Virus record (IMG/VR): IMGVR_UViG_3300042296_000700
Span: 43,128-107,127 of that record
DNA length: 64,000 bases
Origin: a virus
Direction: 5' to 3' (one strand)
Positions 13,001 to 57,420 of the stretch are shown piece by piece. Numbering within the stretch: the stretch's first letter is position 1; each line of letters starts with the position of its first letter. The position numbers and the translations under genes are program-made. Under the pieces are notes generated by a model. The model made no database searches, was not told where the DNA came from, and saw only the letters and a list, made by a program, of their open reading frames with translations.

Positions 13001-13551
13001 AGAACCTAGTTAACTTGGCTAGAGATTCTGGTTCGGTAAGTCTTGGTGCGACGCAAGTTGCTGGATTGTCGGGGATTGACCAAAAGTCTGCAGAAAACCT
13101 GATGTTGAATCAGATTGCTACGGGTGGCATTGATGCAGCCATGATGCAGCAAGAGTTGGTGAAGAGTTATGCTTTGACTGCAGCAGGTGAAAAGGGCGGT
13201 ATATCTCAGCAAGATTTCTTGACAGGTTTGAGTGGTGGAATTGAGCAACTCACGGCAATGACTAATAAGGCGATGGAATTGCAATCGTATAGTGACCCGA
13301 CTTATGGGGGTGGCGGAGTTTTGATGAACGCACCTGTTGCTCCTGGCTCTTTATCAACTGGTACTGACGTGCTTAAACCGACTACGGCTACACAGACGAT
13401 TACTGTTGGGGAAACGAAGGTTCAGGTTAGTGGCATTATGAGTCCGAGTGAAGCGCAACTGATTGCTAACGCGATTATGAAGACGCAAACTGGCCTTTGG
13501 GAACGCATACGCTCTGGCACTCTTATTGGCAAACCGTTGCCAGTGGAATAA
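10060..13551 (+). CDS. Tape measure protein
   Basis: 1163 aa, helical Ala/Gly-rich with hydrophobic GAAIG repeats; canonical position. Confidence 0.9.
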   Translation: MAEQVTIKINVKADTAAIERLRAQLKSLCREADDCSDTFDKYSKGLNTTSTSQKKLTNTTDDNSSAIKRLSGATRGAGNDNRKFGKSMGMLSKVGKFFGNMLMGVAKLGFKYLAIEAALAAAVIASSVVWFKVASASAKGYQMAVAGAGYALTVFAAAGSAFLAAQEQFASVQFAPMFTEGLVNTSDKFEAANLAMKSFVNDSQLAVFGTKALSGAFAEMAKNLDGQKLGQATGALRQMGNVAAGMGGDIGKNFGDVSKFVTSFMKEGKLTDKVKTQGEELSPIFKKVMEEQVKAGNTTYEKFMATVGDNETFKEAYGGQLDALNDTVVGRFKSAITEIKKSFTSMGAPMLGPLTKAIGKIKNLILAMLIRVRGSVEEVGSGSLLNGLIKGVEKLTLLMGRMMTSDMAQAGGAVDKIKNGWKSVLRVFEKISDYLRPLQESARVLFAALQPILGALFGNLDNTIQGLSKSLIDNKDKFIQFTTGIANFIKQVGAFGMVIKDIFISAMPFLSIMLSTFTLIFKAVTNLVDAIMDLSGPLDVIAGPMLAIAGIAGVMGGKALFKGAGGATGLLGKGMQKAGGGGALSKIGGAVATNAATMTVNAGVVNVLGGAAGAAASSAADLATGGGKAGKGGMLSRVKGFLKGPGKLAKIGKVAGPAALLAAGAYGAHKIGDFAGSKFKDNSIKSKAGGALTGAAGGAAIGAAVGSVVPVVGTAMGAVVGGIIGGVSGWFSAGKNKTKAQKAAKNMVESYTSAVDEAFADGDVDALLELKDGMLAQIAESAAGDIEVYNAEIAKLQPELDKINNRIEKFSSNAEQMAKWLGIDGDKMNELTEKFGFQFQTRFVSIFEVIGRAGEELGTDLATFFKDVIDEMNQKQNAGILDLMDQPAKIAALGKEVDASQAAYMSGDNTDEAKDKLIKDQYAYALEQTGGDAMKALALTQDMFKQGDLAGGAYEGKGQALLDRMGAGGMGLLGDSTESRQNLVNLARDSGSVSLGATQVAGLSGIDQKSAENLMLNQIATGGIDAAMMQQELVKSYALTAAGEKGGISQQDFLTGLSGGIEQLTAMTNKAMELQSYSDPTYGGGGVLMNAPVAPGSLSTGTDVLKPTTATQTITVGETKVQVSGIMSPSEAQLIANAIMKTQTGLWERIRSGTLIGKPLPVE

Positions 13552-56378: not shown

Positions 56379-56675
56379 ATCTGTTCCTTTGTTTAGTAGG
56401 TATGCCCCCATTATATCAAGGGGGTGTAACACAGTAACGATTGGTAGCCGTCAAAGTGTGCGCTCGTAAGCAAGACACAATCTAGCATAGATTTATCCGA
56501 ATGTCAAGTTATGTAGAAAATATAACCAGAACCAGAAGACCAGATTCTGGATGCGCCCGAGCGCGAGCCCCGTACACAAAACACAGCACAACAGCCCCGT
56601 ATCGCTGCGGCGGCAGCGGGACTAGTAAGGTAAGTCAAGAAATGTTCCCAGAGTTCACGCATGGCGGGGCTAACA

Positions 56676-56689
56676 CGAACTAGTGTTCG
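56676..56689. promoter_or_regulatory. LexA (SOS/Cheo) box
   Basis: Perfect CGAAC-TAGT-GTTCG ending 3 nt before ATG 56693, overlapping candidate -10 TAGTGT. Confidence 0.7.
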
Positions 56690-56692
56690 CTC

Positions 56693-57094
56693 ATGAACGT
56701 TTCTCGCATTGACAACGCCACTCGCTGGCAAACACATCTGACTGCTTTACAACAGTTTGCTACCCGCACAGGTTCAGCCCGTGTACCCGCTTCCCATACA
56801 GAAGTCGTGGACGGACGCAACATTGCTCTCGGAGCATGGGTTGGGTACATGAGGCAACGCAACCGTGCTGGCTTGCTGTCGGCAGAACGCAAGTCAAACC
56901 TTGAGGCAATCTCAGGTTGGACTTGGGGTCCGCTTCGCCCAGGGCCAGCAACGAACACCGAACGAGATGAGAACATTCTCGTGCTTCGCTCTGAAGGTCT
57001 AAGCCTTGAGAAAATCGCAATGAAGTTCGGTATCTCCCGTCAGCGAGTTCATCAGATTGCTCGCTCTCACGCCTCATCAGATAACAATGGCTGA
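56693..57094 (+). CDS. Helicase-associated (HA) domain fused to sigma-70 region-4-like HTH
   Basis: W......L..F..RTG...VP.....LG.WV..MR.....G.LS.ER...LE.I..W.W; R.EGLSLEKIA.KFGISRQRVHQI. Confidence 0.8.
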   Translation: MNVSRIDNATRWQTHLTALQQFATRTGSARVPASHTEVVDGRNIALGAWVGYMRQRNRAGLLSAERKSNLEAISGWTWGPLRPGPATNTERDENILVLRSEGLSLEKIAMKFGISRQRVHQIARSHASSDNNG

Positions 57095-57383
57095 CAACGA
57101 CCAAAGTAAGTGGCGACTCGTAGACCCGAACTGGCGCATACCAGTTCATGAGTCAGAGATTCTCGCACCACCAACACCGCCTGATAAAGTTCCATTCATG
57201 ATTGCTCTCATGAAAATGCTTTGGGGATTCCTAACGCTTATTTCTTTTTGTGCTTTTGGTGTGTTTATAATCGCTCAGTTGTTGGAACTAGAACAAGTTG
57301 GTTACCGTGACGCTGTAGGAATCTCAGTAGTCCTTATCTTTCTGCGCGCGATAGACAAAACAACTTTCGGCAAAGTTTCGTAG
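57087..57383 (+). CDS. Two-TM membrane protein
   Basis: Hydrophobic segments; coupled to the regulator. Confidence 0.55.
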   Translation: MADNDQSKWRLVDPNWRIPVHESEILAPPTPPDKVPFMIALMKMLWGFLTLISFCAFGVFIIAQLLELEQVGYRDAVGISVVLIFLRAIDKTTFGKVS

Positions 57384-57385
57384 AT

Positions 57386-57420
57386 ACAAAACAACCCCTC
57401 AGGCTTTCGCCGTTGGGGTT
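57386..57420 (-). terminator. Intrinsic terminator
   Basis: Minus strand AACCCC-AAC-GGC-GAAA-GCC-UGA-GGGGUU then GUUUUGU. Confidence 0.6.

What the first reader, a model, noticed from the sequence alone, without database searches (positions are those of the whole stretch)
56676..57383. SOS-boxed HA-domain/sigma-region-4 regulator on the opposite strand inside the early region
Seen: the only + strand operon in 50.9-64 kb starts with a fusion of a helicase-associated (HA) domain and a sigma70 region-4-like HTH. A perfect CGAAC-N4-GTTCG palindrome covers a candidate -10 (TAGTGT) 6 nt before the ATG, which is leaderless geometry. Established: this is the LexA box of Actinobacteria/Firmicutes, and region 4 reads -35 elements. 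Inference: a host-LexA-controlled switch protein that could read or block the unusual promoter class nearby. That implies a dormant/temperate state, although no integrase or CI-type repressor is visible in the window.
Basis: partly seen in the sequence, partly recalled or inferred. Interest (0 to 1): 0.8.

Follow-up and report, generated by a model that had tools for sequence, protein, structure and literature searches.

The report
LexA-gated regulator operon in actinophage
An uncultured phage of actinobacteria has placed a perfect binding site for the host's DNA-damage repressor LexA on the start signal of a small, conserved two-gene unit. Related phages have done the same in at least three different layouts, so the phage probably switches this unit on only when its host is damaged.

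Summary
The dyad CGAACTAGTGTTCG lies at 56676-56689 and is the only perfect copy in the 107-kb record. It contains a -10-like TAGTGT 6 nt before the ATG at 56693. That gene encodes a 133-aa protein with an HA domain (Pfam 6.9e-15) and a sigma-70 region-4-type HTH (borderline Pfam hit).

Of 80 distinct orthologs, 21 carry a perfect box within 100 nt upstream, against 0.0055 expected and 0 for ten control patterns. The box sits over the -10, between -35 and -10, or further upstream. TAnnnT lies exactly 7 nt before the start codon in 55 of 80, so the gene is leaderless throughout. A small two-TM protein gene always follows.

The motif matches the site next to lexA in all 53 Actinomycetota genomes I checked. 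Relatives also carry arrays of the box beside DnaA-box clusters. Three relatives encode the protein but show no box enrichment. Host LexA is therefore the likelier binder, not the protein itself.

A temperate state is not supported: I found no integrase, resolvase, S24 repressor or ParA, and no prophage copies. Binding and induction remain untested. Earlier notes of this scan report LexA boxes in other uncultured actinophages, one on an HA/sigma4 gene.

The parts
56676..56689 (.). Perfect 14-bp dyad CGAAC-TAGT-GTTCG: SOS-box-type operator, most likely for host LexA
   Evidence: the only perfect copy in 107 kb. It is invariant in the alignment of nine class-A orthologous promoters while the flanks vary. 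21 of 80 orthologs have a perfect box against 0.0055 expected.
56681..56686 (+). -10 hexamer TAGTGT (TAnnnT) embedded in the dyad; the transcription start is inferred at or next to the A of the ATG (leaderless)
   Evidence: TAnnnT lies 6-8 nt before the start codon in 66 of 80 orthologs (exactly 7 nt in 55). SD-like 4-mers occur in only 6 of 80.
56693..57094 (+). Gene A, 133 aa. HA domain at aa 10-73 (nt 56720-56911), a Pro/Gly linker, and a sigma-70 region-4-type three-helix HTH at aa 89-124 (nt 56957-57064)
   Evidence: Pfam. AF2 model, pLDDT 82.8, two domains with a disordered linker at 82-87. 173 homologues, nearly all with HA+Sigma70_r4. The nearest Atlas clusters are 96-100% viral.
57087..57383 (+). 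Gene B, 98 aa, small membrane protein. Its start overlaps the stop of gene A (ATGgcTGA). It is a conserved partner with the C-terminal motif F.R.WDR (here LRAIDK)
   Evidence: No Pfam, PHROG or NCBIfam family.
57394..57420 (.). GC-rich hairpin between the convergent + operon and the minus-strand 494-aa gene. It looks like a terminator, with the T-rich tail on the minus strand
   Evidence: Fold -22.4 kcal/mol, z -4.45, 0 of 200 shuffles as good.
56635..56648 (.). Possible decayed second box, TCAAG-AAAT-GTTCC (4 mismatches), at -58. Orthologs L013/L079 have a perfect CGAACAAATGTTCG at the same place (-59). Low confidence
   Evidence: the columns AAATGTT are partly conserved.

Best explanation
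The dyad at 56676-56689 is a real operator, most likely for the LexA repressor of the actinobacterial host. It is fused to the -10 element of a promoter that makes a leaderless mRNA. That mRNA encodes a conserved two-gene module: a phage-specific DNA-binding protein (HA domain plus a region-4-type HTH) and a translationally coupled small two-TM protein.

Mechanism. In an undamaged cell a LexA dimer sits on CGAAC[TAGTGT]TCG and keeps RNA polymerase off the -10. When the host suffers DNA damage, RecA filaments trigger LexA self-cleavage. The promoter is then freed and both proteins are made.

Shown here: the site, its fusion to a conserved TAnnnT-N7-ATG promoter, its recurrence in several geometries in diverged relatives, and its identity with the site next to actinobacterial lexA genes.

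Inferred: that LexA binds it, that it represses, and that damage induces.

Inferred with low confidence (about 0.3): the protein is a sequence-specific transcription regulator, not a sigma factor. It may be held or tuned by its membrane partner, and it shifts the phage programme when the host is in SOS. The phage looks virulent, so this is more likely a host-state sensor within infection than a lysogeny switch.
For: (1) Perfect dyad containing TAGTGT 6 nt before the ATG.
(2) 21 of 80 distinct orthologs carry a perfect box within 100 nt upstream. Shuffles give 0.0055, and ten control patterns and four other spacers give 0.
(3) There are three geometries: over the -10 (9 orthologs), between a TTGAC-type -35 and the -10 (10, one clade with SH-aLRT 99), and further upstream (4). 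The tree needs at least 5 changes. Where the box covers the -10, its centre is TAGT or TAAT, as a -10 requires. Where it lies in the spacer, the centre is ATAT or ATGT, as in the B. subtilis-type consensus quoted in PMC4551915.
(4) In the class-A alignment only the box and the ATG form an invariant block.
(5) LexA_DNA_bind was found in 196 of 201 sampled Actinomycetota genomes (188 of 193 published ones). All 53 lexA loci read have CGAAC-N4-GTT[CT]G with at most 1 mismatch beside lexA, including 20 genomes of 1.3-2.0 Mb.
(6) At position 6, which the search pattern did not select, A is preferred and C avoided in both sets: 0.74/0.02 in phage boxes and 0.66/0.06 in host boxes.
(7) The published consensus is TCGAAC(N4)GTTCGA in M. 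tuberculosis (PMC3381160) and tCGAAC-N4-GNNCGa in S. venezuelae (PMC9380542).
(8) The phage is an actinophage, with two WhiB genes, and encodes no LexA-type domain of its own.
(9) Relatives G002, G003 and G005 encode the protein, whose recognition helix SRQRVHQI is invariant across the aligned family. Their box counts are at control level, with no perfect copy. The box is therefore not the protein's obligatory site.
(10) Relatives also use host-type DnaA boxes right beside arrays of the same dyad, so borrowing host DNA-binding proteins is in character for this group.
Against: No binding or expression data exist. The true host is unknown, so the match is to the phylum's LexA site and not to the host's own. 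The base flanking the dyad is T in 41% of host boxes but in only 4% of phage boxes, although the small-genome hosts mostly show G there. Boxes cluster physically near the HA/sigma4 gene, either in its promoter or in arrays 0.85-2.1 kb downstream in some clades, and 9-11.5 kb away in G001. This is also what one would expect if the protein or a neighbouring phage gene product bound them. Tight arrays of 3-5 boxes at a 15-17 bp pitch are denser than most LexA operators, though sampled lexA promoters show up to four perfect boxes at a similar pitch (L182/L183). A LexA-repressed gene is unusual in a phage with no sign of lysogeny.
Confidence: 0.65

Rival explanations
1. The dyad is the operator of a phage-encoded protein. 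The candidates are the HA/sigma4 protein acting as an autorepressor that also binds the arrays near the origin, or a neighbouring gene product. The likeness to the LexA site would then be mimicry or coincidence.
For: The boxes lie in the gene's own promoter or in arrays close to it in several clades. Arrays of 3-5 abutting sites resemble iterons or operator arrays of phage regulators. In G001 both box clusters lie upstream of paralogous Cys-rich 148-aa genes.
Against: The protein's recognition helix is invariant across the family, yet three relatives that encode it have no box enrichment. The model shows a single HTH on a two-domain monomer, while the site is a symmetric 14-bp dyad. Phage repressor-operator pairs normally diverge, whereas this dyad stays identical across orthologs of under 50% identity and equals the host lexA site, including the unselected position 6. 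No LexA-like winged helix or S24 domain was found in the phage.
Confidence: 0.2
2. LexA does bind, but the main purpose is not to regulate this gene. The boxes would act as a sink that titrates LexA as the phage genome replicates and so forces the host SOS response, or they would gate a DnaA-dependent origin. The promoter box would be a side effect.
For: There are arrays of three to five boxes per region in G001, L010, L017 and L117, directly beside clusters of about 9 to at least 15 DnaA-box 9-mers in G001 and L117.
Against: In the window's own record there is one box only, and it sits exactly on the -10. In class B it sits exactly in the spacer. Such precise placement in different geometries argues for promoter control. 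The two ideas are not exclusive.
Confidence: 0.1
3. The palindrome has no protein partner. It would be a by-product of a -10 element plus chance symmetry, or an RNA/DNA hairpin.
For: One perfect copy per 107 kb has a chance expectation of about 0.1. The centre of the dyad is needed anyway as a -10.
Against: The arms CGAAC and GTTCG are invariant in orthologs whose -10 lies elsewhere (class B and C). 21 of 80 orthologs have it against 0.0055 expected, and only the 4-nt spacer occurs. As RNA the hairpin is weak (-5.5 kcal/mol, z -0.97), and it lies upstream of the inferred transcription start.
Confidence: 0.03

Closest known systems
Bacillus thuringiensis phage GIL01, promoter P1 with dinBox1/dinBox1b (PMC4551915, PMC6182141)
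   Same: A phage without a CI-type repressor carries a Gram-positive-type LexA box (CGAAC(n)4GTTCG-like) at an early promoter. Host LexA is the repressor, and there is an adjacent weaker or half site, comparable to the possible decayed box at 56635-56648.
   Different: GIL01 is a 15-kb temperate, non-integrating linear plasmid-prophage. Its boxes lie downstream of the transcription start, and it needs the co-repressor gp7. Here the phage is about 130 kb with no sign of lysogeny, the box covers the -10 of a leaderless promoter, and it controls one regulator module, not the whole early operon. I did not search for a gp7 homologue.
LexA-repressed antirepressor genes of temperate phages (coliphage 186 Tum; Salmonella Gifsy phages, PMC3121763)
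   Same: Host LexA directly represses one small phage regulatory gene, which then acts on the phage programme once SOS is induced.
   Different: Those are prophages of Proteobacteria with the CTG-N10-CAG box, and their products inactivate a phage repressor. Here there is no repressor, integrase or prophage copy, and the product is a DNA-binding HA/HTH protein with a membrane partner. The 186 details are from my own knowledge.
Clusters of host CtrA-binding sites in virulent Alphaproteobacteria phages, 'lytic deferment' (PMC9437464)
   Same: Apparently virulent phages acquire binding sites for a host global regulator in promoters and in one dense intergenic cluster, independently in several lineages, in order to read the host's state.
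   Different: The regulator differs (a cell-cycle response regulator against the SOS repressor), and so does the host phylum. CtrA binding was shown experimentally in that work; nothing is shown experimentally here.
Autoregulatory LexA operators of actinobacterial lexA genes
   Same: Same dyad, same 4-nt spacer, same preference for A at position 6, and occasional arrays of several boxes at about 16-bp pitch.
   Different: Host lexA-proximal boxes mostly read GTTTG in one arm and often have a T flank. The phage boxes are perfect GTTCG and avoid T at the flank.
Sigma-70 region 4 and Mor/C-type small HTH activators of phage Mu
   Same: A three-helix HTH with an SRQRVHQI recognition helix resembling the TRERIRQI of sigma region 4.2. 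Structural matches have Z 6-7.7 to resolvase HTH, Mu C and Mor, and SigA domain 4.
   Different: There is no sigma region 2, so it is not a sigma factor. The scores are in the range of a generic small HTH. The N-terminal HA domain has no characterised function and no convincing solved homologue.

Membership tests
SOS box (LexA operator) of Actinomycetota/Bacillota | 14-bp dyad CGAAC-N4-GTTCG with exactly a 4-nt spacer | tested here: met
   Among orthologs only the 4-nt spacer occurs. The published consensus is in PMC3381160, PMC9380542 and PMC4551915.
SOS box (LexA operator) of Actinomycetota/Bacillota | Placed so that a bound dimer overlaps core promoter elements | tested here: met
   The box contains the -10 here. 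In class B it fills the -35/-10 spacer. Promoter elements are inferred from a conserved TAnnnT-N7-ATG, not mapped.
SOS box (LexA operator) of Actinomycetota/Bacillota | Conserved upstream of orthologous genes beyond neutral expectation | tested here: met
   21 of 80 against 0.0055 expected; invariant block in alignment A2.
SOS box (LexA operator) of Actinomycetota/Bacillota | Same motif in front of the host's own SOS genes | tested here: inconclusive
   Met for the phylum: 53 of 53 lexA loci. The actual host is unknown, so its own operators could not be read.
SOS box (LexA operator) of Actinomycetota/Bacillota | Bound by LexA; the gene is induced by DNA damage in a RecA/LexA-dependent way | not testable with these tools
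   Needs EMSA or SPR and reporter or transcript assays.
HA (helicase-associated) domain, PF03457 | Match above Pfam's gathering score | tested here: met
   55.5 bits against a cut-off of 28.4, aa 10-73. The nearest Atlas clusters carry HA in 98-100% of members.
Sigma-70 family sigma factor | Region 4 (-35-binding HTH) | tested here: met
   PF04545, 25.7 bits against a cut-off of 24.1 (borderline), aa 89-124. Only weak profile matches to solved sigma region 4 chains, E 0.03-0.9.
Sigma-70 family sigma factor | Region 2 (core binding and -10 recognition) | tested here: not met
   No Sigma70_r2 match even at E up to 1. TIGR02937 scores 21.3 bits against a cut-off of 42.9. The protein is not a sigma factor.
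LexA-controlled lysogeny switch of a temperate phage (GIL01, 186, Gifsy type) | Host LexA box on a phage regulatory promoter | tested here: met
   In silico only.
LexA-controlled lysogeny switch of a temperate phage (GIL01, 186, Gifsy type) | Means of lysogeny: integrase, partition system or prophage copies in host genomes | tested here: not met
   No PF00589, PF00239, PF00717, PF01726 or PF13614 in this record or in the complete relative G001. Only ParB_N-domain genes are present. Genome-contig hits are short misbinned contigs. The window's record is 73% complete, so absence is firm only for G001.
ECF sigma / membrane anti-sigma pair (analogy only) | Co-transcribed, overlapping gene for a small membrane protein after the DNA-binding protein | tested here: met
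   Gene B overlaps gene A. The partner is conserved in most orthologs. Interaction between the two was not tested, and there is no sequence similarity to anti-sigma families.

The most novel reading that the evidence does not exclude
These roughly 130-kb, integrase-less freshwater actinophages may use host LexA as the master brake of a non-integrated carrier or deferred-lysis state. LexA would sit on the promoter of the HA/sigma4 regulator and on arrays of three to five boxes directly beside a DnaA-box origin. Both the regulatory switch and phage replication would then stay shut until the host enters SOS. That is a GIL01-like logic, evolved independently, on a genome ten times larger and in some of the most abundant lake bacteria. 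As a variant, the arrays might soak up LexA to force SOS.
Probability: 0.15. Interest if true: 0.8.

Novelty: new variant of a known kind. Interest (0 to 1): 0.6.

Why it matters
LexA control of phage genes is textbook for prophages. Here it appears in a large family of uncultured phages that look virulent, on a regulator family that exists only in phages and has no known function. The operator has been placed at this one promoter in at least three different ways, which is strong evidence that tying this module to host DNA damage is selected.

The finding gives a concrete, cheap experiment: a LexA gel shift plus a mitomycin-C reporter in any model actinobacterium. That experiment bears on a wider question, namely whether lytic phages of abundant freshwater bacteria, which face daily UV damage, read the host SOS state to time their programme.

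It also flags the HA plus region-4-HTH protein and its membrane partner as a candidate phage switch. And it points to a probable origin architecture (LexA-box array next to DnaA boxes) in relatives.

Tried and rejected
- Cultured relatives: megablast of 4 kb, and tblastn of gene A and of the 494-aa neighbour, against 50,697 GenBank phage records gave no match.
- Prophage copies: the scan of 185,579 species genomes gave only four full-length hits, all on 9-25 kb contigs of MAGs labelled Thiobacillus, Poseidoniaceae, Planctomycetaceae and Phycisphaerae. I read these as misbinned phage contigs.
- Integrase, resolvase, S24 peptidase, LexA DNA-binding domain and ParA (AAA_31): none found in this record or in relatives.
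- Fold searches: Foldseek against PDB gave nothing at E<=1e-3. VIA-align gave Z up to 7.7, only for the generic C-terminal HTH, and one weak match for the HA part (2kta, rmsd 5.6). BFVD matched only HA repeats of giant-virus helicases. The fold therefore suggests no function.
- RNA hairpin role for the dyad: weak and not significant.
- A hairpin at 56594-56622 that looked like a terminator is not better than shuffles (z 0.03).
- The standard sigma-70 promoter scan finds no + strand promoter. That is expected for a -10-only actinobacterial promoter, so it does not count against one.
- tRNA genes as host clues: none in the window.
- Gene B: no family in Pfam, PHROGs or NCBIfam, and no useful Atlas hit.

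Full report
**What the window is.** The window is the last 64 kb of a 107,127-bp IMG/VR virus record (linear, CheckV estimate 73% complete, 46% GC). Two WhiB genes mark it as an actinophage. No cultured phage in the GenBank collection matches at DNA or protein level.

**The observation.** CGAACTAGTGTTCG lies at 56676-56689. TAGTGT (56681-56686) lies inside it, six bases follow, and the ATG is at 56693. It is the only perfect copy in the record. One-mismatch copies elsewhere are at chance level.
- Gene A (56693-57094, 133 aa) has an HA domain (PF03457, 6.9e-15) and a borderline Sigma70_r4 match (25.7 against 24.1 bits). It has no sigma region 2.
- An AlphaFold model (pLDDT 82.8) shows two domains joined by a disordered Pro/Gly linker. 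The C-terminal part is a three-helix HTH.
- Gene B (57087-57383, 98 aa) overlaps gene A's stop and has hydrophobic segments.
- A strong hairpin at 57394-57420 separates the operon from the convergent minus-strand genes. Those genes are a 494-aa protein and an AAA_5 ATPase.

**Conservation test.** I fetched 30 viral, 15 genome and 80 metagenome loci encoding relatives. That gave 80 distinct orthologs with 100 nt of upstream sequence.
- 21 of them have a perfect CGAAC-N4-GTTCG there, and 23 do with at most one mismatch.
- Shuffles give 0.0055. The reversed pattern, eight other dyads and spacers of 2, 3, 5 or 6 nt give 0.
- The box occurs in three geometries. In nine orthologs it covers the -10, as here. 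In ten, forming one well-supported clade, it fills the spacer between a TTGAC-type -35 and the -10. In four it lies at -36 to -59.
- On the protein tree at least five changes are needed.
- The centre of the dyad follows the geometry. It is TAGT or TAAT where it must double as a -10. It is ATAT or ATGT where it is free.
- In the alignment of class-A promoters, from orthologs of 50-98% protein identity, the box and the ATG are the invariant block.
- TAnnnT lies exactly 7 nt before the start codon in 55 of 80 orthologs and 6-8 nt before it in 66. SD-like words occur in only 6. The leaderless design is therefore a conserved property of this gene.
- Gene B is a conserved partner with two hydrophobic segments and a C-terminal F.R.WDR motif. 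Its start usually overlaps gene A's stop by 4-8 nt.

**Who binds the box.** The following points favour host LexA over the protein itself or another phage product.
- LexA_DNA_bind was found in 196 of 201 sampled Actinomycetota genomes. Eight of the 201 are unpublished (G155, G026, G128, G090, G096, G009, G181, G056) and enter only this count. Without them the figure is 188 of 193.
- I read 53 lexA loci, none of them from unpublished genomes. All have the dyad with at most one mismatch beside lexA, against an expectation of 0.02-0.1 per locus. This includes 20 genomes of 1.3-2.0 Mb.
- Some of these loci have four perfect boxes at about 16-bp pitch.
- At position 6, which my search pattern did not fix, phage and host boxes share a preference for A and an avoidance of C.
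- The motif equals the experimentally defined consensus of M. tuberculosis (PMC3381160) and S. venezuelae (PMC9380542).
- The phage encodes no LexA-type or S24 domain.
- Three relatives (G002, G003, G005; 58-88% complete) encode the protein, whose recognition helix SRQRVHQI is invariant across the aligned family. They have no perfect box, and their one-mismatch counts equal the control.

The main caveats are these. Boxes tend to lie near the gene. The flanking T of the classical consensus is rare in phage boxes. The true host is unknown.

**Wider context found on the way.** The complete relative G001 (128,618 bp, terminal repeats; ortholog 84% identical) has five perfect boxes, against 0 for the control pattern. 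One lies on the orthologous promoter. A pair lies at 99.2 kb. An array of five, three of them perfect, lies at 101.55-101.64 kb. That array is followed at once by about nine DnaA-box 9-mers such as TTATCCACA and TGTGGATAA. Other clades have arrays of three or four boxes 0.85-0.95 kb after the gene's start (L010, L017). In L117 the array is followed by at least 15 DnaA boxes. The window's record ends at the point equivalent to G001:97,616, so this region is missing from it.

**Lifestyle.** There is no tyrosine integrase, resolvase-type recombinase or ParA-type ATPase in this record or in G001. Only ParB_N-domain genes are present. No prophage copy was found in bacterial genomes. A carrier state cannot be excluded.

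**Function of the module.** The nearest protein clusters are 96-100% viral and share the HA plus region-4 architecture. Fold and profile searches give only generic HTH matches: resolvase, Mu Mor and C, and sigma domain 4. I commit, with low confidence, to a sequence-specific transcription regulator working with a membrane partner and switched on by host DNA damage. Its targets are unknown. A PafBC-type damage promoter is not present.

**Comparison and novelty.** The closest known systems are GIL01 P1/dinBox1 (PMC4551915), the LexA-repressed antirepressors of temperate phages (PMC3121763), and the CtrA-site clusters of virulent phages (PMC9437464). This case differs in four ways: the host phylum, an apparently virulent large genome, an operator fused to a leaderless -10, and the regulated gene family. 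Earlier notes of this scan describe LexA boxes in other uncultured actinophages, one of them on an HA/sigma4 gene in the spacer geometry. That agrees with my class B. Those are unchecked AI notes, not publications. My literature searches found no paper describing this.

Noticed in passing
L130:15549-15805 (= G001:101548-101804, complete relative of this phage): An array of five LexA-type boxes (three perfect, 15-17 bp pitch) is followed at once by about nine DnaA-box 9-mers such as TTATCCACA, TGTGGATAA and TGTGGAAAA. It is probably the phage origin with host DnaA and LexA sites side by side. The equivalent region is missing from the window's record.
   Followed up: partly
L117:5130-5500: In another clade, two perfect and two degenerate boxes are followed by at least 15 DnaA-box 9-mers within 300 nt, 2.1 kb after the HA/sigma4 gene's start.
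   Followed up: partly
L010:5857-6260 and L017:5865-6300: Arrays of three or four perfect boxes just after the two-gene operon are followed by long G/A-rich tracts of GGCGAG/GGCAAG-type repeats of unknown role.
   Followed up: no
L130:12594-13040 (-) and L130:15002-15445 (-): Two paralogous Cys-rich proteins of about 148 aa, with no PHROG family, each lie downstream of a TGTNACACC-type promoter and a LexA-box cluster in G001. A 68-aa CxxC...CxxC ORF (13287-13493, +) follows the box pair on the other strand.
   Followed up: partly
L005, L059, L063-L065, L068, L087 (upstream of the ortholog): A different conserved motif, ATTCGCGCACGA, replaces the LexA box upstream of the gene in another clade, at varying distance from the -10. 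It may be the operator of another factor.
   Followed up: no
window 56479-56507 (-) and about 56400-56440 (-): In the 540-bp divergent intergenic region there is a TTGACA-17-TAGATT promoter-like site and a TGTTACACCCC...TATAAT element on the minus strand. They face away from the HA/sigma4 operon.
   Followed up: no
G000 against G001 (whole records): The window's record appears to lack about 23 kb, equivalent to G001:97.6-120.8 kb. The contig breaks in the repeat-rich early/origin region.
   Followed up: partly
L031-L034 (genome contigs): Full-length orthologs sit on 9-25 kb contigs of MAGs labelled Thiobacillus, Poseidoniaceae archaeon, Planctomycetaceae and Phycisphaerae. These are almost certainly phage contigs binned into the wrong genomes.
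   Followed up: no
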